A stretch of DNA of 41,166 nt from the IMG/VR virus record IMGVR_UViG_3300044580_000569, positions 1 to 41,166 of that record. One strand, given 5' to 3'. How positions within the stretch are numbered: the stretch's first letter is position 1; each line of letters starts with the position of its first letter. A program made the translations under genes and the position numbers. Of this stretch, positions 2,979 through 23,113 are shown one piece after another. The notes below the pieces were generated by a model. The model saw only the letters and a list, made by a program, of their open reading frames with translations, did not search any database and was not told the DNA's origin. Source of the DNA: a virus. Lineage: Duplodnaviria; Caudoviricetes.

Positions 2979-5900
2979 ACCTTGATATTGATTCCTTTTG
3001 TGTTGATCTGGTCGATTCCGCTTTTAACTGAATCCATTGTCTTTTCGATTTTCTCCAGTCGGCTGGTGTTCCGGTCGATGTTGAATAAATGGTTAATCAT
3101 CACCGTAATGTTGACCAGCATGATTTTCATATTTTCGCTAATTGAGTACGTGTGACCCTGTATTGCTGTCATCCTTCCATTCAGCTCATTGATAGAGTCC
3201 TGGCTGGCTTGTGCTATTCCCTTGCTTGATGCTGTCCTGTTGCTGGCATTAAATATGTCTATTCCTTGTTGTTTGAGGGCTTCTTGAGTATCCAGCATAG
3301 CCTTATTATATTGCTCGAGTGCAGCCGGGTATTTCTCTGTGAATCTTAAAATATCATCGATAATATCATAGTCGGCATTGTCGCTATCGAATGATGCAGC
3401 CATTTCTTCTTCGAGTTGATTAAACATTTTACCGAAAAATGCATCAAATATCTTTTGTTGCATGATTTCCTGTATCACTTCTGTCACCGCTCCTTTGAAT
3501 TTGTCGATTGCTCCGGTAATCTCACCATTTGTAAATGCTTCGACCAGTGCATCACTTAGTTTGCCTCCCAGGTCGCCGGCCAAGTCTGAGAAGGTTTGCC
3601 GCATTTGCTCCCGTGCTTCGACTGCTTTTCCTCTGATTTCTTCCCAATTGTCAATGAGCTTTTTTGTCGCATCATCCATCTTGTCGTAATCGTTCAGGAT
3701 TTCCTGATTAAGCTCGTATGTTTCCGGATTGAAAATTTCGCCATATTTGTCTTTTAGATTTTCCAGTACCGGAACTGTTTTTGTAGTCACGGCTCCGGCG
3801 ATACCTCCTACGATAGCTCCAATACCTGCGCCAATTAAAGTTGACAATCCGAATGTAAAACCTGCGAAAATTGTCCCAACTGCTGCACCGGTAGCTGCTC
3901 CGGCTCCGGCTCCACCAGCGACATTTCCCCAGTTGATTTCCTGTTTTGTTCCTGTTTGAACCTGTCCATCTCCCAATTTTGCAGCACTTCCCTGGAGTTC
4001 ATTCATTGCTGCTGCATACTGCATTGCTCCGTCGATTGCTCTCTGATATGGATTTTCAACTCCGAATATGTTACTCTCTTTGTATGACTCCATTTCGATA
4101 CGCGCCATTGCGGCCAGATGTGCGCTCTCCACAATCTTATCGTTCCACTCCTCCTGCGCTTGTTTGTTGGCTTCAATCTGGTTTGCAATAATAGAGTACA
4201 TGTCTGCAAGTCCGGAAATTCCGGCAGCTGCTATATCAGTTTTTGTCGCATTCTTGTCAAATATTTGGGTGACATTGTCAATACTTCCGGCCAGCCCACC
4301 GATAACGGATCCGATATCTCCCATGATACCTTCTGTCGTTTGAAGTGCGCCTGCAAGCTTTTGAAGCGATCCACTGAGCTTGTTCGCGATGTCGAGTATT
4401 TTCTCCCATTCTTTTGCGTCGACTGCTTCTGTTGATTTCGTTTTAACTTTATCGAGAGCAGCGGCTAATTTTTCAACGTCCACCCCGGCTTGTTTCAGCG
4501 TCTCCAGCTGTTCAGGTGATAGCTCGATTTCTGCTATCGTTTCCTTCAGCGTTCCAAGCTCTTTGATTGTGAGCTTGCTTATGTCCTCAAACAATGGCAT
4601 CGCTTCCTTTATTTTCGACTGCATGAAGTCGGAGCCTTCTCCAAAAAGATAAAGTTCAACCAGCCCAGTCCCGCTTTCGCGGAGCGCATCCTTTTGCAGT
4701 TCCTCGATTGCTTTTTGCATCTGTCGCTTTGCTTCTTTGACTGCATCACTTTCAGCACCCTGTTCGGTTGTCAATCTCTGTATATCTTCATTAAATTTCT
4801 TTTCGATATCCAATCTTTGTTGCGCGTAGTTCCGGTAGTTCTCGAGTAGTTTATCCTTCGTTTGCTGCTGCTTATTCTGGTATGCTTTATCCTCATTTTC
4901 ATCCATTGATGTGAATGCAGCAGCTTGTTTTGTCGATAGCTGGATACTTTCTTTGTCAAATTTCACACCTTTCGCTTCTGCTTCTGCTTTGGCATTTTCC
5001 CGGAGCGTAGAGAGCATATCTTCACGCTGGCGATTGATTTCTGTTTTTCGCTTTGCGTGGTTTAGTGCGAGTTGCGCCAGCTCTTTGTCGATGCCATCTT
5101 TCATCGCGTCGATGCGTGCCTGTTCAGCTTGGTACTGAATGTCTTCATCCATCCTTACCTGATTGATGCGGTTTTGCTCGAGCTGATTCTGTATTTTATC
5201 CTTATCTTTATTGGATTTGTCGTACTGTTTGTTAAAGAGCTGTATTTTCTTTTGTTCGGCCTCGATTGCTTTATCGATTTCTGTCAAACGCGTTTCCCTG
5301 TCTTCCGGTGTCATCGATTGGGATAGTATTTTTGACCTCTCACCCTGTAGTCTTTTAATCTCTTTATTGGATTTAGCGATGTCCTGAGCAGCTGTTGTTC
5401 TAAGTGTTTTGCGCTCCTTTTCTTCCATCCTCAGCTGGGTGAGCTGGTTGGCTATCTCGCTTTTGTCGTATGTACCCATTCCGGTGATACGTCCTTTCTT
5501 GTCGCTGTCTCCAATTGCGGAGAGGAGCTTTTCTCGGCGAGTTATTTCGTTTTGTAGTTGGTCGTCTGTAAATCCGGTTATTCCGGCCAGAAAGTTTTTA
5601 GCATTGTCCTTTTCGATGTTTCGTCTCGTTATTTCGAGGTCGGCTTTGGCATCTTCTACGGCTCTGGCCAGTTGCTGTTGTAACACGGAGTCGGAAAGCG
5701 AGCCAGTCGATTTAAAATTTTTTAATCGTTCCTGTGCTTTCTCTACCTTTTCGAGTTGCTCATCATAGGTATCTTTTAGCGTTTTAGTAGCCCTATTCTC
5801 CTCCTCTTGTGCGATGTCCTTTTTGAGCTGGAGTATTTGCTCGAGAGTCATTCGCTCGGTGTTATATTTCGCGATGATTTCCGGGTACAATTCAATGAGT

Positions 5901-13039: not shown

Positions 13040-13282
13040 ATGAATATGAAAACAATTGACGATCTCTTCGATTTGGTTTTGGAACAGACAAATAAAAACA
13101 AAGGTAAGATGGTTCGGTATATGTTCGATATCAGCCAGAGATATAATTGGGTGTCGATGACTCAGGTCGTTGAGCTTTCCGGTGAGAAGAAGGAGAAGGA
13201 GATTTTCTCTAATATGTCTATCGCGACTCCCGAGGAGCTGCAGTTGGTCTACTGGACTATCGTCAACAAAGGCCGCAAATAA
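13040..13282 (+). CDS. Hypothetical protein (accessory island)
   Basis: 80 aa, A-rich leader, tiles with neighbours. Confidence 0.75.
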   Translation: MNMKTIDDLFDLVLEQTNKNKGKMVRYMFDISQRYNWVSMTQVVELSGEKKEKEIFSNMSIATPEELQLVYWTIVNKGRK

Positions 13283-13338
13283 AAAACAATCCGGGAGCTT
13301 GTCTCCCGGGTAATATATAAACTCAAATTCACCGAAAA

Positions 13339-13542
13339 ATGAAAACTCTATTAATCAACGTATCCCAAGCAGCGAGAGCCTATGATGCTCTTGTGGACTC
13401 CTACCTGACTCGCTTCATCAACCAGACCGCATCTAATGCTTACGATTTCGACCCTGAAAAGCTGTTCTTTGGCGAGCCTTTGCAGGATGCTATCGTTGAT
13501 GTAATGGAGCGTTATGGTGTGAATGAATTTGAAATATTATAA
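13339..13542 (+). CDS. Hypothetical acidic protein (accessory island)
   Basis: 67 aa, A-rich leader. Confidence 0.75.
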   Translation: MKTLLINVSQAARAYDALVDSYLTRFINQTASNAYDFDPEKLFFGEPLQDAIVDVMERYGVNEFEIL

Positions 13543-13561
13543 ACCCTTTAATTTTATAAAT

Positions 13562-13783
13562 ATGGACGCTTTAGAATTTATCACAAATTATAAATCATAT
13601 GTGGCTCGAATTGAGGCCATATCTGCTGAAAAATTTCAGCCGGCTATTGATGAAATGTACAGCCGTGATCCTCATGATATGGTATCTCCAAGTACTTATT
13701 TAAATTCGGATGCTGAGGCCGTAGGTCTTGTATTCAGGTTTTTCCGTGTGGAGTGTATTCGTCTCGGTTTGATAAATGAATGA
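13562..13783 (+). CDS. Hypothetical protein (accessory island)
   Basis: 73 aa from ATG 13562 (MDALEF), followed by terminator. Confidence 0.7.
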   Translation: MDALEFITNYKSYVARIEAISAEKFQPAIDEMYSRDPHDMVSPSTYLNSDAEAVGLVFRFFRVECIRLGLINE

Positions 13784-13804
13784 TTCGGCCGGTCATCTTT
13801 CTCC

Positions 13805-13828
13805 GGGAGCTTCGGCTCCCTTTTTTTT
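13805..13828 (+). terminator. Intrinsic terminator
   Basis: GGGAGC-TTCG-GCTCCC followed by T8. Confidence 0.9.
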
Positions 13829-13914
13829 CCGGATCGACCCGGAATTTGCCGCGCTGTCCCGGTGCTTCTCGTTAGTTAATTAGAGTTAATCGACTGAAAA
13901 TAAATGCTTTATAA

Positions 13915-13946
13915 TTTGGTGTATTGAATAGAAAGCACTACCTTAG
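13915..13946 (+). promoter_or_regulatory. Promoter of accessory island, unit 2
   Basis: TTTG-N20-TACCTTAG, near-identical copy at 26773-26804. Confidence 0.65.
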
Positions 13947-13971
13947 AGGTATAAATTAAAAAACAAACGAT

Positions 13972-14334
13972 ATGAAAACTACAAAAACAAAAACTTACGA
14001 AATCAAAATTAAAAGCGCACCCGGTTCGTTCCATAAGATTGGGCATGATGCTTACCCTTCTCTAAATGCAGCACTTAAGGATGTAAAACTATTTTCTGAA
14101 GCGTTTAAGCCAGAATCAATTTTTGTATTCTGCAATGGCCGCATGGTATGTAAAACTGAAAATAAAAACGGTTCTTTCCGGGATCCTTATTATGAAATGT
14201 CTGATGGCTTCCAGTCTTTCTCTTGTGCTGCTGTTAATTCCGGAGATGATCGACTGGTTGCTTTGGCTGCTAATGTTGCAAAGGCTATCAATGAGATAAC
14301 CGACCACCTGAATTCAAATTATTTGTGGGACTAA
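13972..14334 (+). CDS. Hypothetical protein (accessory island)
   Basis: 120 aa, A-rich leader after promoter. Confidence 0.75.
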   Translation: MKTTKTKTYEIKIKSAPGSFHKIGHDAYPSLNAALKDVKLFSEAFKPESIFVFCNGRMVCKTENKNGSFRDPYYEMSDGFQSFSCAAVNSGDDRLVALAANVAKAINEITDHLNSNYLWD

Positions 14335-14351
14335 TCTTAAAATCTGAAATC

Positions 14352-14552
14352 ATGAAAAAGCGAAACGTCACTAAAATAAAAATAACATCCATCCACTCTG
14401 ATGGGATGTGTGGTATTCCTGCTCGTATATTGCTCCAGCGATTTTGTCTTCTCAGGTATTGTGAGAAAGTTGGCGACTCCGAGTCTGTGAATAACTACCA
14501 GCTCGGGTTGCTACGGGAGCATGGTGTTGAATTTGATGTAATTGAGATTTAA
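14352..14552 (+). CDS. Hypothetical protein (accessory island)
   Basis: 66 aa from ATG 14352. Confidence 0.6.
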   Translation: MKKRNVTKIKITSIHSDGMCGIPARILLQRFCLLRYCEKVGDSESVNNYQLGLLREHGVEFDVIEI

Positions 14553-14600
14553 AAATATAATGCTTGTCGGCTGCTCGAGTGTGGAACCGTCGCTTTTAAT

Positions 14601-14960
14601 ATGACTTACTCCGAAATAACGCAGCAGCATGCTCCCTGTGAGAACTGCTTTTTTGCTTTCTCAAATGAGCAATTTAAAGAAGGATTGGCAAAGGCCGGCC
14701 TTAGTGAAAATGATAAAATCTATTCTGCCGGTCATGGCTTGTATGGCACAAAGGAAGGCATTCAGAAGTTTTTTTCATTTTATGATGAGCAAGATAAACG
14801 CATCGCTGCTGAGTGCGATCCGCAGTCGGTTTATGATTATGAATTCGTAAATCATGAGTGTTCATATACTAATGATGACCGCGAGGCGTTCGCCATTGTG
14901 GTTCGGATTTTTGGCGAGGAGACAGCTGGTTCTGTTAAGCGCAGATATGCGTATTCGTGA
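14601..14960 (+). CDS. Hypothetical acidic phage protein (FFAFS.EQF...YEF.NHE motif)
   Basis: 119 aa. Motif pattern recalled from phage/ICE hypothetical proteins. Confidence 0.75.
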   Translation: MTYSEITQQHAPCENCFFAFSNEQFKEGLAKAGLSENDKIYSAGHGLYGTKEGIQKFFSFYDEQDKRIAAECDPQSVYDYEFVNHECSYTNDDREAFAIVVRIFGEETAGSVKRRYAYS

Positions 14961-14984
14961 TTTTCCGGTCTCGTTATTTTTTCG

Positions 14985-14992
14985 TACCTTTG
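14985..14992 (+). promoter_or_regulatory. -7 promoter box for the last two island genes
   Basis: TACCTTTG, a perfect TAnnTTTG, 27 nt before ATG 15020. No clear -33 box. Confidence 0.5.
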
Positions 14993-15019
14993 TGTGTTAT
15001 ACTTAATAAATCCATCCTG

Positions 15020-15277
15020 ATGACTGAAAATAAAAAAATGACTTTTTACCATGTCCGGTTCCGGGAGGCTCCGGACACATCTGGCCAGCTCGACTATTAT
15101 TTTGGTTCGCTGGCGGCAATCTACGACGTGTTTTCTCCCGAGCAGGTCGGCTGTAAAATTGAGAATCTTTGGAATAAGAATCTTAGCTCTGGTGGCTCCT
15201 GGTCTGGTTCCCGGTCGACCGTCACCCGGTGTGAAATGATAAGAAAAAAAACTAACAGAGGAGGGCGTATAAAATGA
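15020..15277 (+). CDS. Hypothetical protein (YYFGSLAAIY motif)
   Basis: 85 aa from ATG 15020, stop overlaps next start (ATGA). Confidence 0.7.
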   Translation: MTENKKMTFYHVRFREAPDTSGQLDYYFGSLAAIYDVFSPEQVGCKIENLWNKNLSSGGSWSGSRSTVTRCEMIRKKTNRGGRIK

Positions 15278-15489
15278 GCGAACCAAAATATAAAGAAGAA
15301 TTAACCGAGGCTATGCATTCGGAGTTTGAAGTCGATCTGGCTACTGAATTACAGCATCGGTGCATCACTCTTTGGTGTCTTGCTGGAGCTAATGAAAACA
15401 AAGAAGATTTCCCGGCCTTGTGCGAGCTTTATGGCGTGACTGTCGATGAGGCTCTGGAGTTGAAGGGTTATTGTTTGAGCTTACTTTAA
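15274..15489 (+). CDS. Hypothetical acidic protein, candidate immunity protein
   Basis: 71 aa, translationally coupled to previous gene, converges on the MuF C-terminus. Confidence 0.65.
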   Translation: MSEPKYKEELTEAMHSEFEVDLATELQHRCITLWCLAGANENKEDFPALCELYGVTVDEALELKGYCLSLL

Positions 15490-15527
15490 AAAAAAGCGCG
15501 GTGTTGTGTCCGCGCTTTTTCTTTTTT
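15488..15527. terminator. Bidirectional intrinsic terminator
   Basis: A8-GCGCGG-loop-CCGCGC-T5 between convergent genes. Confidence 0.88.
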
Positions 15528-18195
15528 AGTTCCCTTTGTATAGGTAGTTTTCAAATATTACCCTCTCCACCGTATTGTTCAGGTTAATGTTGCCATACCA
15601 GTTGCTTTTAATTAACAAATCCTTTCCCCATGGAGTATCTGCAAGTAAGCGCATTGGGAATCTATTTGATTTCGGGTTGTCTTTAAAGTATTTTTCTATA
15701 ATTCCGATTGCCTGTCTTGCTTGTGATTCGCTTAGTTTATTTGCTATTCGACCACCTAAATACTCCGATATTTTGTTTTTATTTACAGAAAAACCGTATC
15801 TTGCCCATGCGTATCCTCCTATATCAATGTTCGCGTGAACCTTGATTTCTTCGACACCTGCGTTTTTGTATTGTTTATATAAACATTGAAATAATTCTTT
15901 TGTAAATCCATTCCCTTGCATTTCTTTCGGTATTGTTAGGAATTCATGGATGACGTACATTTTTCCTTTTGTGTCTGTTTTAAATGTTCTTATCATTCTG
16001 AATTTTTCACCTTTGTATGTTCCGCTTATAATCATTTCGGCTTTACTTTCTTGCAAAAAGAGACCTTGTGTTTTTACAGTCATATTGTTTTTTTTCATTA
16101 ATGCGTTTAAATCAATATTAAATTCTGTCAAATTAAAATCTCGCATCTTTTTTATGTATATATCTTCTATGTTTCCACTTCCTCTTGCTTTAATCGTCCA
16201 TCCTTCATTTTCGAGTGCTTGTCGTTTTTTATAATCCATTCTGTACGACTGAGGTTTGAAGTCGTCCACTTGGTTTGTTATTACCGGGCTTGGCTTTTGA
16301 GTTTTTGCCGCAGCTGGTGCTGGTGTTCTTGTTGCAGTTCCAGCTATGCCTCTTTCGTATCTTCTTATTGCTCTATCGAATTGCTCTACTCGCCAGCTCA
16401 AAGCATTTGGTACCGCTACTGTTCTGTTTGCTATTTCGATAGCTTGTTTTATGTCTATTTCGCTAACTCCAGCGAGTCTTAGTTTGTTTATGTATTCGTT
16501 TGTTAGCCTTGCTCGATATGCGTTTGAGCCTCGTATTATCTCGGCTGCTTCTTCTCTTGTGATGTTGGGTCTCCATCGTTTTTCATTTTCTATAACTGCA
16601 TTTATGTTGCGCAGGCTTACTTCCACTTGGTTTACTAATGGTTTGTTAGCTATTTTCGCTTTCCTCTCATCCCACGCCTTTTGGATTGCCGCTCGCTGTT
16701 CTGGAGTCCTGGCGGCGTGTCTGGCGGCACTTTTTTCGGCGGCTGTTAGGTAATCCTTAACGACTGCGTTTATTTTGGTTTCTCCTCTCCTAATTGCAGC
16801 AGCTGTTCGATGCCATCCGTCGATAACTTTCCATCCTCCTTCTACTGTATATCGTTCGTAGATAACCGGCGGCAGGTTGTCCCACTGTTTTTTTGTCATT
16901 GCTACTAAAGCATCTACTTTCGCTTTATCTGTATTGGTCACATTGTAATTGTTTTGCTCCCATGCAATAATTTTCTCTCGGAGTTGTTCTGTTTTAAACT
17001 CTATTATTTTAGCATCCGGATTGTGTTTTAAGAAATTTCTAAGCTCCTCTGGCATTTTTCTTTGATCCCTTGCTTCATTTACTTCTTTGGCAGTTGGTCG
17101 TGCTGGTTCCGATGCTACCGGTTGTTGTTTGAACCATTCGGTTGTGTTAGTTCCTTTGAAGTTGTCCCTGATAAAGTATGGCTGTGATTTTGCTGTTGCG
17201 ATCCGGTCTTTGTTTTGTTCAGCCCAGTCTTTAAAATTTTGTGGCAGGTCTTTCACTTGGTTTTGGCTGGTGGTGTCGGTTGGCTTTCCTTCCTCGATTT
17301 TCTCGACATCTTGCTGGAGTTCCTCGGGTGTTTTTAGGATCGTTACTGTGTGGCACATGCAGTGGGGATGCCATCCCGTAAATTTAAAATCTTTCGGGTA
17401 CTTTCCCTTCAGTTCGTCGCAGATGTCGTAAACGTGGCCGGGGTTGTTTGTCAGCCGGACTTCAATTCCGACAACAAAGTCGAGCTGTTGGATTCGCTCG
17501 TGGTCTGCCGCGCGGTAGGCCATGTTGGTCTCCGTCCGGGTGAGGCGCATTGCGTTCTTGTAGCTGCTGCGGTAGACTCCCTGTCCCGGATGGTATTGTT
17601 TGGCATTTTTTGAGAGTTGTAGGATTCCATGCTGGTCTCGCACTCTTCTGAATAGTTTGTCCGGCTGCTGGAGGTATTGTTTGAGGTCTCTGGCCATTTG
17701 TCCGGCCGGCAATCCTTCCCGGATTCCAATGTCGAGACCTGCCTCGATTTCCTGTTTAAATCCATTTGTGTACTTCCATACCCGATCGCTGAGTTTCATC
17801 CCGGCTTCCTTCCGGTTGATGAAGGCCTGAAGGGCAGCGTTGTTGTTATTGAAGTATTTTTTAAATTTACCGGGGATATCATCGGTATTTTTTATCCCGA
17901 GTATTCTTTGGGCTATCTGGTCATTTATTAAATTGCTATTTTCCCATTCCGCAGTAATTCCATTTACCACAGTGGTTTGTATTTCTGATTGCATTTTAGC
18001 AGTCATCTTATCGATGCGTGCTTTGGTTCTGGGGTAGTCATCGAAGCTAAAAGGTTTACTGAACAGGTCATTCGCGTTAAATGTTGCACCAATAGCGGCA
18101 GCCTCCTTGATTCCTTCATCAAAGATTGCGTCGATTTGCTTCATATAGCTCTGTATTCTGCGATAGTGCGCCTTTTCCCAGTCCAGTTGGTTCAT
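15526..18195 (-). CDS. Minor head protein (MuF/SPP1 gp7 family) with ParB-like and GNAT-like C-terminal extension
   Basis: RLTRTE and WHPHCMC MuF motifs, LPPV..VIDGWHR ParB/Srx motif, IPKEMQGNG...GGYAWARYGF acetyltransferase-like motifs, position after portal. Confidence 0.85.
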   Translation of the reverse strand: MNQLDWEKAHYRRIQSYMKQIDAIFDEGIKEAAAIGATFNANDLFSKPFSFDDYPRTKARIDKMTAKMQSEIQTTVVNGITAEWENSNLINDQIAQRILGIKNTDDIPGKFKKYFNNNNAALQAFINRKEAGMKLSDRVWKYTNGFKQEIEAGLDIGIREGLPAGQMARDLKQYLQQPDKLFRRVRDQHGILQLSKNAKQYHPGQGVYRSSYKNAMRLTRTETNMAYRAADHERIQQLDFVVGIEVRLTNNPGHVYDICDELKGKYPKDFKFTGWHPHCMCHTVTILKTPEELQQDVEKIEEGKPTDTTSQNQVKDLPQNFKDWAEQNKDRIATAKSQPYFIRDNFKGTNTTEWFKQQPVASEPARPTAKEVNEARDQRKMPEELRNFLKHNPDAKIIEFKTEQLREKIIAWEQNNYNVTNTDKAKVDALVAMTKKQWDNLPPVIYERYTVEGGWKVIDGWHRTAAAIRRGETKINAVVKDYLTAAEKSAARHAARTPEQRAAIQKAWDERKAKIANKPLVNQVEVSLRNINAVIENEKRWRPNITREEAAEIIRGSNAYRARLTNEYINKLRLAGVSEIDIKQAIEIANRTVAVPNALSWRVEQFDRAIRRYERGIAGTATRTPAPAAAKTQKPSPVITNQVDDFKPQSYRMDYKKRQALENEGWTIKARGSGNIEDIYIKKMRDFNLTEFNIDLNALMKKNNMTVKTQGLFLQESKAEMIISGTYKGEKFRMIRTFKTDTKGKMYVIHEFLTIPKEMQGNGFTKELFQCLYKQYKNAGVEEIKVHANIDIGGYAWARYGFSVNKNKISEYLGGRIANKLSESQARQAIGIIEKYFKDNPKSNRFPMRLLADTPWGKDLLIKSNWYGNINLNNTVERVIFENYLYKGN

Positions 18196-18199
18196 CTTC

Positions 18200-18409
18200 C
18201 TATTTAATCTTTATCCATCGACTGTTTATAGTGTCACCCGTTTCAATTACTCCGGCCTGCTCTAATTCAAAAACGGCCAGGGCTATGCTCTGGTGTTTTA
18301 TTTCCGGCATGGACTGTGTGAGCTGGTGGAGTGTGATGTGTTCCGGGTGTACCTTTTCTTTTCTCTCTTGTGTTAGCTCGATGATTTTTGCTTTGATTTG
18401 TTCTATCAT
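18200..18409 (-). CDS. Small winged-helix-like hypothetical protein
   Basis: 69 aa from ATG 18409 filling the portal-MuF gap. Helix-helix-LEQAGVI-beta hairpin pattern. Confidence 0.6.
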   Translation of the reverse strand: MIEQIKAKIIELTQERKEKVHPEHITLHQLTQSMPEIKHQSIALAVFELEQAGVIETGDTINSRWIKIK

Positions 18410-18419
18410 GATGTCGTGT

Positions 18420-19811
18420 TTAAGTTGTCGGTTCGAAGATGTCACGCGTATTTTCTTTGTTGATTTCATCCATGGTTTGCTCCGGGTTATCACTCCATCC
18501 AAGGTATTTAATTCCTTCTATCTGGCTGAGAATTTGCTTTCCTCCGGTTGCTGTCATGATGTTCTTAATAGTTTCACCTTCGTCGTTAATGCGGTACGGC
18601 GTGATTTCTTGCTCAACTTCCAGCTCATCGATTTCTTTTGCATGGCTTGGGAGGATCTTTTTTGCAAATTCTTTGATAACGTTAACCTCACGGTCGAGTA
18701 TCTCGAGCCAGGCTCCGGCTTCCTCTGTCACCTTCAGCTCAGCGTCTACAAACATCATTTTTCTTGCTTCTCCGGACATTGGTGTTGCTTTCATCTGATC
18801 AAAGCTCATATCCGGGATTTGAAGTTCTGTGAAGAATGCGCGGTATAAGTTTTCGATTTGGAGTTTCATGCTTTCAGTTGCCTGCTCCCATGTGATGTAC
18901 TCTGCTTTCGCTTTTTCCGGCCAGCGATAAACTGATACGTCGTCGCTATCATTCCCGGTCTTTGTTCCGAGGTCTTCATCTGAAAATATCCCAAATATTG
19001 GTTTACTGTTTTTTCTGATGTAGTTTCCGTTCCGGCTAAGTGTCCATTCAACTTCGTAGACATCGTTGCTGGTGTCTTCCCATATCGGTGTTTCCCGGTG
19101 CAAATAAACGGCTGGGATTTTACCGAGCTTATTTACTTCCCTTATTTCCTCACTCCATCCGCTTGTGGTGTCCTTCCATTTTATGTGTTCGTCTTTTGTG
19201 AATGTCTCGAAGTATTTTGTTTCCTCCGACCCTATTTTCCTTTTATATGCGAAACTTAGCGCGAGCAGGTCTCCGTCGTCATCAAAGTATGGGTATAGCT
19301 GGTCTCCCTGCATTGGGCTATAGTTCTTGCAGCGTATTTTTATATCGGCTTTTACTCCGTAGATGCTGTTTTTCGATTCCTGTGCATACCAGAGTGTGAC
19401 AAATTCACAGCCTGCAAAAAGTAAATTTCCCCTTTTAAAGTTGATTGTATTGATTCTGTTTCGTATCAGAATTTTTTCAATCAAACGGGCAGCTTCCTCC
19501 TGTTTTTTATTTCCTTTCTCGGTTTTGTAGATCCGTTTTACAGGCGTTCCGAACATGAGCTGCGTCATGCGCTTTACTGCAAGTTTTTGCAGCCCTATTC
19601 CTATCCTGGTGACTTTGATTGTCTTGTTTTTTGTGACCTTGTCTTTGTAGTTAGGGTCTGTAAATACAGGATGTTTCTTTGGATTGTACTCTTTTTCGAG
19701 TTCGCTCCATTCTGGGATAGTGACTGATTTTTTCTTTAATTCAGCAATCAGTTGTTCGATAGTGTTGAATGACTGATCAATTCCGGCGATATTTACTGCT
19801 GTTGTGTCCAT
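18420..19811 (-). CDS. Portal protein (SPP1 gp6-like)
   Basis: 463 aa after TerL. YITW and SGEARK motifs. Confidence 0.9.
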   Translation of the reverse strand: MDTTAVNIAGIDQSFNTIEQLIAELKKKSVTIPEWSELEKEYNPKKHPVFTDPNYKDKVTKNKTIKVTRIGIGLQKLAVKRMTQLMFGTPVKRIYKTEKGNKKQEEAARLIEKILIRNRINTINFKRGNLLFAGCEFVTLWYAQESKNSIYGVKADIKIRCKNYSPMQGDQLYPYFDDDGDLLALSFAYKRKIGSEETKYFETFTKDEHIKWKDTTSGWSEEIREVNKLGKIPAVYLHRETPIWEDTSNDVYEVEWTLSRNGNYIRKNSKPIFGIFSDEDLGTKTGNDSDDVSVYRWPEKAKAEYITWEQATESMKLQIENLYRAFFTELQIPDMSFDQMKATPMSGEARKMMFVDAELKVTEEAGAWLEILDREVNVIKEFAKKILPSHAKEIDELEVEQEITPYRINDEGETIKNIMTATGGKQILSQIEGIKYLGWSDNPEQTMDEINKENTRDIFEPTT

Positions 19812-21755: not shown

Positions 21756-21786
21756 TCGTTGATTTCTCGTTGATTTCTCGTTGATT
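21756..21786. repeat. 11-bp tandem repeat (TCGTTGATTTC x2.8)
   Basis: Direct reading. Fills the methyltransferase-TerS spacer. Confidence 0.9.
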
Positions 21787-23113
21787 ATCCTATTTTAGTT
21801 ATTATGCACTCCGGGTCGAGCTTGTACATCCTGTCGAGTATTACCTGGCAGTACTTAGGGTCGAGTTCCGAAGTGTAGCAGTTCCTTTTCAACTGGTGCG
21901 CTGCGGCCATCGTAGAGCCGGAACCTCCGAAAAGGTCAACAACCAAATCAAAAAACCGAGAGCTGTTGGTGATGTTCCGGCCTATCAGCTTCAGCGGCTT
22001 CATTGTCGGATGCTCGCCATTTCTCAGCAGCTTGTCTTCCCGGATGATTGTTGATGGTATCAAGTCCGAGAGCATCTCTTGGAGCATGTCTTTCATTTGC
22101 GCTTTGGTCATCTTCTCTATGTCGAGTTCGTCCTCTATGACCGTTGTCAGGCTCCTGTTGTTTACAAAATAATGAGCGGCTCCGTCCTTCCAGCCATAAC
22201 AAATTGGTTCGTGTCTCCACTGATAGTCTTGTCGGCCAAGTACCAGGCTTGATTTAACCCAGATGAGTTGCTGTTTGTCTGTAAGTCCGTTTGCTCTAAG
22301 CGATTCGATGAAGTTCACCGATTCGCGGCTTGCGTAGTAAACATAAAAAGCGGCTCCAGCCTTCATGATTCTGGCTGCCTGCGCAAATGCGTCAGTCAGA
22401 AATGCTTTGAATTTGGCATCGCTCATTTTATCATTTTCGATCTTGAGTTTCGCTGCTGTGCCTCCCTGATAATCGACATTGTATGGCGGGTCTGTAACGA
22501 GTAGGTCTGCGAGTTTTCCTCCCATTAATCTGTCGACCACTTCCGATTTCGTGCTGTCTCCACAGATGAGCCGGTGAGTAAGTCCCTGGGATTTAATTTC
22601 GAATAGGTCGCCTTCTACTATGTCTGTTTTGATTTCGTCCGGTATCTGGTAGTTGTCCTCCTCTGCTTCTTCCGGAACCTCTGGGGATATGTCCGCATCA
22701 ACTCCTGGGATATCTACACCCCATGTGTCGAGGTCTTCCAGGTTCCAATCATTGGCCAACATATCAAAGTCCCACTCTCCGAAGCCGGCGTTATCCTTGA
22801 TCGTGTATGCTTTCAGCTTTTCGATGCTGGTTCCTTCCGGGATGATCTTGCATGGAATTTCAGTGTGTCCGAGTTCTTTGAGTACTCGGTAGCGCATATT
22901 TCCTCCGATTGTGACATACTTTTTCCCGTGCTTAATTACGAGAATCTCTCGAAGCTGGAGCATCTCTGGGTCTTCCAGTATTGATTTTCTCAGCTTCTCA
23001 TACTTCTCGTCCCGGATTAAGCGTGGGTTCTTTGGTAGCCCTTCTATTTGTCCGTTGTTTGGTTCTATCTGATGGACGGGGATCATCCTTGTTATTACCT
23101 GTGTTTCGCTCAT
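21785..23113 (-). CDS. ParB-N domain fused to amino-DNA methyltransferase (beta class)
   Basis: KNPR..GGNMR ParB-like N-terminus. DPPY precedes HPTMKP and DLFGGSGS. Confidence 0.92.
   Translation of the reverse strand: MSETQVITRMIPVHQIEPNNGQIEGLPKNPRLIRDEKYEKLRKSILEDPEMLQLREILVIKHGKKYVTIGGNMRYRVLKELGHTEIPCKIIPEGTSIEKLKAYTIKDNAGFGEWDFDMLANDWNLEDLDTWGVDIPGVDADISPEVPEEAEEDNYQIPDEIKTDIVEGDLFEIKSQGLTHRLICGDSTKSEVVDRLMGGKLADLLVTDPPYNVDYQGGTAAKLKIENDKMSDAKFKAFLTDAFAQAARIMKAGAAFYVYYASRESVNFIESLRANGLTDKQQLIWVKSSLVLGRQDYQWRHEPICYGWKDGAAHYFVNNRSLTTVIEDELDIEKMTKAQMKDMLQEMLSDLIPSTIIREDKLLRNGEHPTMKPLKLIGRNITNSSRFFDLVVDLFGGSGSTMAAAHQLKRNCYTSELDPKYCQVILDRMYKLDPECIITKIG

What the first reader, a model, noticed from the sequence alone, without database searches (positions are those of the whole stretch)
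15526..18195. MuF minor head protein carrying tandem ParB-like and GNAT-like effector domains
Seen: an 889-aa protein whose N-terminal ~350 aa is MuF-like (RLTRTE, WHPHCMC). It is followed by a ParB/Srx-like segment (LPPVIY..VIDGWHRTAAA, ~16760-16960), a low-complexity linker (TATRTPAPAAAKTQKP) and a C-terminal domain with an acetyl-CoA-loop-like MQGNG and GGYAWARYGF. The last ~700 nt look more AT-rich than the rest of the gene. Known: MuF proteins of temperate phages can bear interchangeable C-terminal toxin domains and are virion components. Inference: a virion-delivered two-enzyme payload, a nucleotide-binding/hydrolase domain plus an acetyltransferase, with a recently swapped tip.
Basis: partly seen in the sequence, partly recalled or inferred. 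Interest (0 to 1): 0.82.

Follow-up and report, generated by a model that had tools for sequence, protein, structure and literature searches.

The report
Phage-head acetyltransferase toxin with plug antidote
This prophage head protein ends in a swappable domain predicted to be an acetyltransferase, next to a small overlooked gene whose product is predicted to plug its active site, so the pair is likely an undescribed toxin-antidote system that would act by acetylating bacterial proteins.

Summary
The 889-aa ORF is real. It is a Bxa-type MuF head protein (aa 1-349) with a ParB/Srx-like module, a helical domain and a C-terminal domain that models confidently as a GNAT fold.

Swapping is shown, not only inferred. 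A sister phage 96% identical on the MuF side and in the next gene replaces exactly window 15278-17149 with an ADP-ribosyltransferase-like tip plus an ADP-ribosylhydrolase gene. Other assemblies drop the ParB module in frame or change the tip at about aa 631.

Its homologs abut the GNAT gene in 64 of 142 GNAT loci and appear in 0 of 67 MuF loci with other or no tips. A predicted complex (0.86, best control 0.00) puts its conserved motif on the acetyl-CoA loop.

In Patescibacteria the same GNAT family sits with a small partner and a Sir2 deacylase (5 of 7 GNAT-hit genomes; Sir2 in 8 of 401 overall), which points to protein-lysine acetylation.

Verdict: a new variant of the known MuF toxin-immunity systems. 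Toxicity, substrate, virion loading and ParB activity are untested.

The parts
17149..18195 (-). MuF head domain, Bxa-type (aa 1-349); predicted virion-loading carrier
   Evidence: PHROGs head morphogenesis, minor head and Bxa families; 99% identical in sister phage L001; downstream of the portal gene
16750..17052 (-). ParB/sulfiredoxin-like module (aa ~382-482, motif VIDGWHR); optional
   Evidence: PHROG E 3e-6; ESM Atlas 0.94; 94% identical in P0009, whose GNAT is only 42% identical; deleted in frame in one contig; fold not confirmed
16663..16737 (-). Short recurrent hinge motif between modules (aa ~487-511)
   Evidence: Profile hits 27 stored sequences, in several as multiple copies; one contig joint lies at 16731
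16342..16632 (-). Helical spacer domain (aa ~522-618), shared with MuF proteins that carry other tips
   Evidence: E 4e-22 to the L001 protein; also in P0006, P0010, P0011, P0013; helical in the model
16261..16341 (-). Low-complexity linker containing a second exchange point near 16303 (aa ~631)
   Evidence: Run X4 contig matches 16303-17057, then runs into sequence 27 of 30 nt identical to the L001 linker before its ADP-ribosyltransferase-like tip (compared by eye)
15526..16203 (-). GNAT-fold tip (aa 665-889): H750, Q760-G-x-G-x-x-K766 loop, HANIDIGGYAW (787-797); predicted acetyltransferase toxin
   Evidence: Model pLDDT 95; fold searches; 2227 relatives at 50% clustering; conservation
15491..15520 (.). 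Hairpin with flanking A and T tracts between the two convergent stop codons; likely a two-way terminator
   Evidence: Terminator scan; consensus match only
15274..15489 (+). 71-aa acidic partner gene (motif KEELTxxMHxEF); predicted immunity protein
   Evidence: Occupies the slot of the ADP-ribosylhydrolase gene in L001; homologs abut GNAT genes; not found at other tips; predicted complex
14957..15277 (+). Upstream 106-aa gene whose 3' end supplies the ribosome-binding site and overlapping stop/start for whichever partner gene fills the slot
   Evidence: Junction sequences of window and L001; loose ends at 15277 in runs X3, X4 and X19, and the X5 joint
18420..19811 (-). Portal gene (context for MuF)
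   Evidence: Pfam SPP1_portal E 4e-28

Best explanation
The gene encodes a MuF phage-head protein with exchangeable C-terminal modules, whose tip is predicted to be an acetyltransferase toxin that likely acetylates lysines of bacterial proteins and is likely held inactive by the adjacent 71-aa protein, predicted to plug its acetyl-CoA site. Shown: the domain layout; exchange of the extension together with the convergent gene between sister phages; tight linkage of tip and partner. Predicted: the GNAT fold and the plug-type complex. Inferred: a few MuF copies are packed in the head and enter the next cell with the DNA (published for other MuF proteins). A cell without the partner would be acetylated and slowed or re-directed. 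The lysogen would be protected because the partner is the last gene of a plus-strand run of small genes that could be expressed apart from the late genes. Protein lysine as target is inferred from the Sir2 deacylase next to the same GNAT family in Patescibacteria, by analogy with ART + hydrolase and Apk2 + Aph1 (about 45% for lysine; about 70% for toxin plus immunity whatever the target). The ParB-like module is an optional passenger, likely a nucleotide-binding or phosphotransfer domain, without its own partner gene.
For: Cassette swap: L001 is 96.3% identical over window 24194-17150 and 96.1% over 15277-14557. Between these it has an ART-like tip (PHROG ADP-ribosyltransferase E 4e-6; a 99%-alike protein clusters by tip with PF03496/PF01129 carriers) and an ADP-ribosylglycohydrolase gene (E 5e-30). 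One contig of run X5 joins 15277 to 17150 with 2090 other letters, the same length as the L001 cassette. Linkage: the partner profile hit 64 of 146 loci searched whole; all 64 are among the 142 GNAT loci and lie at the GNAT gene's 3' end, 53 convergent and 11 co-oriented. It hit 0 of 54 MuF loci with other tips and 0 of 13 short-MuF loci. In two samples of 401 genomes it gave 3 new hits, 2 beside a GNAT tip. Partner distances follow GNAT (rho 0.29, p 5e-4) and not MuF (0.08, p 0.06), n=40. Complex: score 0.86, best of 3 controls 0.00; the mark was reached by 116 of 157 solved and 2 of 215 mismatched pairs; runs agree in >=92% of contacts; partner pLDDT >=84. Partner residues 6-21 contact GNAT H750, loop 760-766 and 786-797, and E17 touches G761, G763, T765 and K766. 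The tip is net +13 and the partner net -10. Other clades have their own adjacent small acidic ORF with a conserved His (clusters of 26, 13 and 10). Sir2 (E 1e-41) lies next to GNAT + partner in 8 of the 10 loci of the third cluster and in no other stored locus. In 401 genomes of that class, Sir2 was in 8 and the GNAT in 7 (one spurious); 5 have both, adjacent, and two of these were new to the session.
Against: No activity, toxicity or virion data exist for this family. Structural matches are weak and do not single out a subfamily: tRNA-acetylating toxins, protein N-acetyltransferases and small-molecule GNATs score within about 2 Z units. The position where motif B usually has a catalytic Tyr (recalled) holds an invariant Trp797, although Tyr795 is near-invariant (102 of 104, partly by construction of the search pattern). 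The Sir2 link comes from one non-phage lineage and may be one event. No Sir2 is in the window or in any Bacteroidota locus, and 2 of those 10 loci lack it. One weak partner homolog has no GNAT nearby (L234). 78 of the 142 GNAT loci have no hit to this partner profile, among them 10 of the 55 best-scoring viral loci, one of those truncated. The linkage counts include duplicates and kin; 56 distinct partner sequences were kept in A4. The two GNAT-positive loci of the control set are contigs used to train the profile.
Confidence: 0.68

Rival explanations
1. Same toxin-immunity pair, but the tip acetylates the amino group of aminoacyl-tRNA and blocks translation, like TacT/AtaT toxins.
For: TacT1/2/3, AtaT, KacT and GmvT structures are among the fold hits (Z 5.9-6.4). 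The window's tip is basic (+13) and its partner acidic.
Against: These hits do not outrank protein N-acetyltransferases. The family is only mildly basic (median +3, 62% positive). No peptidyl-tRNA hydrolase was among 185 downstream representatives scanned, whereas Sir2 was. The partner has no DNA-binding domain at significance.
Confidence: 0.2
2. The tip is a non-lethal host-takeover or counter-defence acetyltransferase delivered at infection (like Rac on RNA polymerase or AcrVA5 on Cas12a), and the partner only keeps it off in the producing cell.
For: Phage GNATs that modify host proteins are described (PMC7824862 passage on Rac; PMC5512222 section 11). AcrVA5 is a fold hit (Z 5.6, rmsd 2.7 A, 88 of 95 aligned, rank 50). 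A few copies per virion suit an enzyme acting on a specific target. This is compatible with lysine acetylation.
Against: The slot is shared with tips of kinds shown to be antibacterial in Bxa and Apk2 (PMC11699363, PMC12226406 passages). A dedicated partner in every clade examined suggests self-toxicity.
Confidence: 0.25
3. The tip modifies phage DNA (Mom-like) or a small molecule, or is a non-catalytic CoA-binding relic, and the small gene is a regulator.
For: Mom is a phage GNAT. The top Foldseek hits include the non-catalytic acetyl-CoA-binding domain of isocitrate lyase 2 (its non-catalytic role is recalled). Trp stands at the usual Tyr position.
Against: H750, the Q/G loop, N789 and Y795 are conserved at about 32% mean identity. 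The tip is exchanged with toxin-type tips, and its partner with a known type of immunity gene.
Confidence: 0.1
4. One reading: ParB and GNAT form a coupled two-enzyme payload.
For: ParB followed by the GNAT tip occurs in the window and P0009, and with a different ParB-like stretch in P0013.
Against: Most GNAT-tip proteins have no ParB. ParB is deleted in frame in one contig and joined to an L001-type tip linker in another. The partner gene follows the tip, not ParB.
Confidence: 0.1

Closest known systems
Bxa-BAH-Bsi of Bacteroides stercoris prophage (PMC11699363; passages and supplement text searched)
   Same: Same MuF subfamily (Bxa PHROG E 6.5e-88). C-terminal enzyme with adjacent immunity genes. 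The sister phage L001 carries an ART-like tip plus ADP-ribosylhydrolase in the same slots.
   Different: The tip is a GNAT fold. The paper lists ART, glutamine deamidase and alarmone-synthetase tips, with 0 mentions of acetyltransferase in main text or readable supplements. Here the partner gene is convergent and plugged behind another gene's ribosome-binding site.
MuF polymorphic toxins (PMC5576092; passages, section 5 and supplement text searched) and Apk2-IapK-Aph1 (PMC12226406; passages)
   Same: MuF gene after the portal in a temperate phage, variable extension, small neighbouring ORF; immunity by active-site occlusion plus an eraser enzyme.
   Different: No GNAT, acetyltransferase or ParB entry in text or readable supplements (one scanned file not readable). 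Multi-module extension with several exchange points.
Polyvalent-protein GNAT and DdrB-like ParB domains (PMC5512222; passages and section 11)
   Same: GNAT and ParB domains in multidomain virion-associated phage proteins, predicted to modify proteins. Relatives of this tip occur in proteins of up to 7601 aa, some with ART, glutamine deamidase, zeta-toxin or WXG100 domains.
   Different: Their two GNAT families are placed in gammaproteobacterial phages and conjugative elements, with no Bacteroidota, MuF fusion or immunity partner named in the section read. Identity with either family could not be tested because the supplements were unavailable.
GNAT toxin-antitoxin toxins TacT/AtaT/KacT/GmvT; phage acetyltransferases Rac and AcrVA5
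   Same: GNAT fold used in conflict; fold hits at Z 5.6-6.4.
   Different: No sequence match in PDB. This domain is fused to a head protein, has an extra strand and a C-terminal helical extension, and its partner is a small acidic plug without a DNA-binding domain.

Membership tests
MuF polymorphic toxin | N-terminal MuF-superfamily domain | tested here: met
   PHROG head morphogenesis, minor head and Bxa; TIGR01641 below cut-off; PF04233 not hit on the window's copy
MuF polymorphic toxin | Gene next to portal/terminase in a temperate phage | tested here: met
   Portal and terminase upstream with one 100-aa ORF between; integrase and repressor-like genes; record classed as provirus
MuF polymorphic toxin | Variable C-terminal extension on a conserved N-terminus | tested here: met
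   18 tip clusters among 122 proteins; three different extensions on MuF domains 96-100% identical (window, P0006/L001, P0007)
MuF polymorphic toxin | Small adjacent ORF specific to the tip (candidate immunity) | tested here: met
MuF polymorphic toxin | Toxicity of the tip and rescue by the partner | not testable with these tools
   Needs expression experiments
MuF polymorphic toxin | Presence in the virion | not testable with these tools
   Published only for other MuF proteins
GNAT superfamily | GNAT fold | tested here: met
   Model pLDDT 95; top VIA and Foldseek lists almost all GNAT, best Z 8.2, rmsd 3.3 A, 129 aligned
GNAT superfamily | Motif A Q/R-x-x-G-x-G/A pyrophosphate loop | tested here: met
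   Q760 97, G761 94, G763 99, K766 94 of 104 rows; aligns to the loop of a solved N-acetyltransferase
GNAT superfamily | Acyl transfer from acyl-CoA | not testable with these tools
   No assay
tRNA-acetylating TA toxins (TacT/AtaT) | Sequence or structure standing out towards this subfamily; motif-B catalytic Tyr | tested here: inconclusive
   Z 5.9-6.4, tied with or below other GNATs; Trp797 at the usual Tyr position and Tyr795 two residues earlier (canonical position recalled)
tRNA-acetylating TA toxins (TacT/AtaT) | Antitoxin with a DNA-binding (RHH) domain encoded upstream | tested here: not met
   The partner lies at the 3' end and has no significant Pfam family
ParB/sulfiredoxin superfamily (aa 382-482) | Profile match and conserved DGxHR arginine | tested here: met
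   PHROG E 3e-6; PF02195 precomputed on the same protein; Atlas 0.94; motif in sequence; below the Pfam cut-off
ParB/sulfiredoxin superfamily (aa 382-482) | ParB/Srx fold | tested here: inconclusive
   Model failed, pLDDT 56 with 2 sequences
Polyvalent-protein GNAT families 1/2 (Iyer 2017) | Sequence identity to the defining alignments | not testable with these tools
   Supplements unavailable

The most novel reading that the evidence does not exclude
A widespread, undescribed acetylation-based toxin system. One GNAT family (over 2200 clusters at 50% identity) is carried on phage heads, in giant polyvalent proteins and as a stand-alone effector of Patescibacteria. It acetylates lysines of target-cell proteins, is blocked by short acidic proteins whose His/Glu motif mimics CoA in the active site, and in Patescibacteria is erased by a dedicated sirtuin: the acetyl counterpart of the ART/hydrolase and Apk2/Aph1 three-part systems.
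Probability: 0.4. Interest if true: 0.8.

Novelty: new variant of a known kind. Interest (0 to 1): 0.66.

Why it matters
The toxin lists I could search for MuF and polymorphic toxins name nucleases, peptidases, ADP-ribosyltransferases, deamidases and alarmone synthetases, but no acetyltransferase. This locus adds a candidate new chemistry together with its antidote family, which makes it clonable and directly testable.

It also offers a natural experiment on the open question of what MuF toxins are for. Near-identical phages from sludge, wastewater and digester samples differ in this cassette, with breakpoints known to the base.

The link to a sirtuin in Patescibacteria suggests that these small-genome bacteria, which live on host cells (recalled), may use the same enzyme on their hosts or competitors.

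Tried and rejected
Uninformative searches: Pfam, NCBIfam and PDB sequence searches on the whole protein or tip gave nothing significant; Cas3_C, Avs1b, neuroserpin and proteasome hits were dismissed as chance. Single-sequence pattern scans for the tip and for ParB found no real relatives in viral contigs (two 13-25-aa ParB matches ignored). The ParB segment has only one close relative in the 5.8-billion set, and iteration in session data added none. The AlphaFold2 model of aa 382-625 failed for ParB and was not used for a fold search. Earlier scan findings: none by sequence or by words.

Expression: only contig-level runs were available. One RNA library holds part of the partner gene but also portal and MuF pieces, so nothing is concluded about transcription or lysogenic expression. 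Missing cover of the tip in several runs is not taken as absence. The sigma-70 promoter scan was at chance level (8 found against 9.7 expected) and does not cover Bacteroidota promoters.

Rejected readings: 'swap limited to the last 700 nt'. G919 as a GNAT hit, because it overlaps a tryptophan-synthase-like ORF. Several small clusters as alternative frames in high-GC DNA.

Rows dropped: L072 and L094 were left out of A3 (a stop in the L072 range; L094 had the same overrun pattern); 8 duplicate partner sequences were left out of A4; 13 of 82 control loci were not assessable because truncated; downstream-gene scans covered 185 of 312 cluster representatives.

Not-in-print claim: it rests on searches of an open-access library only, plus term searches in the papers cited.
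Full report
Observation. It lies in the head module of a provirus record: terminase and portal upstream, scaffold-like and major capsid genes further down, integrase and repressor-like genes elsewhere. Named relatives of the MuF part come from Bacteroidales. Runs holding parts of the region are labelled sludge, wastewater, digester and landfill. Residues 1-350 match PHROG head-morphogenesis families and the Bxa family but not Pfam Phage_Mu_F. The last 700 nt are 33% GC against 45%, but third-position GC drops from 0.54 to about 0.33 directly after the MuF domain.

The tip is a GNAT fold. A search of 1.84 billion representatives found 2227 relatives, from about 580-aa proteins to giants of 7601 aa. 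With 104 sequences AlphaFold2 gave pLDDT 95. Foldseek and VIA lists are nearly all GNAT or acyltransferase folds, though weak (best E 4e-4; best Z 8.2, rmsd 3.3 A over 129 residues), and no subfamily stands out. 27 of 104 members hit Pfam Acetyltransf_10 at E<=0.01. H750, Y776, A788, G793, W797 and W866 are invariant, and Q760, G761, G763 and K766 are present in 94-99 of 104 rows. Conservation of the ANIDxGGY stretch is partly by construction, since 73 of the rows came from loci found with that pattern. By my recalled picture of motif B, Trp797 occupies the usual catalytic Tyr position, and Tyr795 may substitute.

The ParB-like segment is supported by a PHROG (E 3e-6), the Atlas (0.94, 151 of 256 features) and its DGWHR motif, but its model failed. 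Its one close relative, P0009, has it at 94% identity while MuF is 75% and the GNAT 42% identical, which suggests that it moved on its own. P0008 has the same scaffold as P0009 with another domain in that position. A short hinge motif and a helical domain recur between modules in many MuF proteins.

Swapping is shown. Among 122 MuF proteins with extensions (pre-selected for length 488-1556 aa; the best 120 of 7918 hits were listed) there are 18 tip clusters; this GNAT is the tip in 12, including two records of the window's own protein. Sister phage L001 is 96% identical up to window 17150 and again from 15277 to 14557. Between these points it carries an ADP-ribosyltransferase-like tip and a convergent ADP-ribosylglycohydrolase gene. 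The same breakpoints appear in other runs: one X5 contig joins 15277 to 17150 across 2090 other letters, and X3, X4 and X19 leave the window at 15277 into the hydrolase start. An X4 contig keeps ParB and the helical domain, then enters an L001-type linker at 16303 (27 of 30 nt, compared by eye); it is a separate contig from the one with the hydrolase, so their linkage is inferred. An X20 contig lacks the whole ParB module in frame.

The overlooked part. In the window the hydrolase's slot holds a 71-aa acidic ORF (15274-15489, +). It starts behind the same ribosome-binding sequence and ends at a hairpin shared with the MuF stop. Of 146 loci searched whole, 64 had a homolog; all 64 were GNAT loci, with the hit at the GNAT gene's 3' end, 53 convergent and 11 co-oriented. 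78 GNAT loci had none, mostly outside Bacteroidota where record titles tell. In loci chosen by MuF alone, it was in 0 of 54 with other tips and 0 of 13 short ones. In two samples of 401 genomes, three new hits appeared: one beside a MuF-GNAT, one beside a truncated GNAT, and one weak orphan. Partner divergence tracks the GNAT rather than MuF (rho 0.29 against 0.08, n=40), a modest signal. The predicted complex scored 0.86 against 0.00 for the best control (mark reached by 116 of 157 solved and 2 of 215 mismatched pairs; contacts agree >=92%; partner pLDDT >=84). The conserved N-terminal motif lies over the pyrophosphate loop, H750 and the HANIDIGGY stretch. This supports binding but does not show it. 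The partner family has no Pfam match.

A clue to the substrate. GNAT loci of other lineages have their own adjacent small acidic ORFs, each with a conserved His (clusters of 26, 13 and 10). In 8 of the 10 loci of the last cluster, mostly titled Patescibacteria and showing no phage genes in the gene maps, a convergent Sir2-family gene follows. In 401 genomes of that class Sir2 was found in 8 and the GNAT in 7 (one spurious). Five have both, adjacent, where 0.14 are expected; two of the five were new to the session. Kinship inflates that contrast and it may be one event. By analogy with Bxa-BAH-Bsi and Apk2-Aph1-IapK, an eraser of acyl-lysine beside the pair suggests protein-lysine acylation. 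Against this: no Sir2 in the window or in any Bacteroidota locus, although a control Bacteroides genome encodes one.

Mechanism. Shown: layout, exchange, linkage. Predicted: fold and plug. Inferred: loading into the head, delivery with the DNA, acetylation of proteins in a cell lacking the partner, and protection of the lysogen by a partner expressed from the opposite strand. I put toxin plus immunity at about 0.7 and lysine as target at about 0.45. Rivals are tRNA acetylation, a non-lethal takeover or counter-defence enzyme, a DNA or small-molecule modifier, and a coupled two-enzyme payload.

Comparison. It meets every testable feature of MuF polymorphic toxins and belongs with Bxa. PMC5576092 (passages, section 5, six supplement files), PMC3482391 (first 300,000 of 357,715 characters) and PMC11699363 (passages, eight supplement files) contain no acetyltransferase tip; one scanned file in each supplement set was unreadable. 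PMC5512222 (passages, section 11) describes GNAT and ParB domains in polyvalent phage proteins and predicts protein targets, but names no MuF fusion or partner in what I read. Its supplements were unavailable, so this family may be one of its two. Rac was seen only in a search listing and a passage of PMC7824862. A whole-word search for MuF and GNAT returned five papers, four listed, and of these only PMC5512222 is on topic by title; subscription literature was not searched.

Verdict. A new variant of a known kind: known carrier and logic, with a candidate new toxin chemistry, a new immunity family and base-level swap maps. Interest 0.66.

Noticed in passing
L233 1199-2265 / L236 ~3500-4570 (genome handle G145): About 1.07 kb of phage-like DNA (5'-truncated GNAT tip with a degenerate loop, an intact partner gene and the start of a scaffold-like ORF) sits between two 47-nt CRISPR-like repeats near the end of an array of over 40 repeats, with spacing 1124 against the usual 78; other long gaps are 511 and 668. 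It could be a giant spacer that captured an immunity gene, or a misassembly.
   Followed up: partly
L122, L123, L126, L129, L135, L139, L142, L143, L238, L239: Patescibacteria-type stand-alone GNAT with a long acidic N-terminus, a small partner and a convergent Sir2 gene; some lie near rRNA-like sequence and an RlmH-like gene. In L139 the Sir2 gene is followed by an ADP-ribosylglycohydrolase and an HD-domain gene, like an array of erasers.
   Followed up: partly
L234 1297-1647 (genome handle G049): Weak orphan homolog of the partner (E 3e-7) with no GNAT nearby; a possible orphan immunity gene.
   Followed up: no
window 13040-15489 (+): A run of small plus-strand genes, opposite to the late genes, inside the head module; gene content varies between sister phages. 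It may be a lysogeny-expressed accessory region.
   Followed up: partly
window 18200-18502 (-): Unannotated 100-aa ORF between portal and MuF, conserved in L001.
   Followed up: no
window 21785-23113 (-): ParB-N plus N6/N4 DNA methylase fusion upstream of the small terminase-like gene; a second ParB domain in this phage.
   Followed up: no
P0008, P0010, P0011, P0007, P0015 (middle domain): A domain with GxGLY and E-x-V/I-x-F/L-like motifs, ADP-ribosyltransferase-like by eye, fills the slot held by ParB in the window; no Pfam match.
   Followed up: no
P0230, P0135, P0181, P0195, P0130: Relatives of the tip occur, often in several copies, in large proteins with WXG100, glutamine deamidase, zeta-toxin or MuF domains, so the family may also travel by type VII secretion.
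   Followed up: no
L096 6460-7227: A Bacteroidota GNAT locus with the small partner and also an ADP-ribosylglycohydrolase gene downstream, possibly kept from another module.
   Followed up: no
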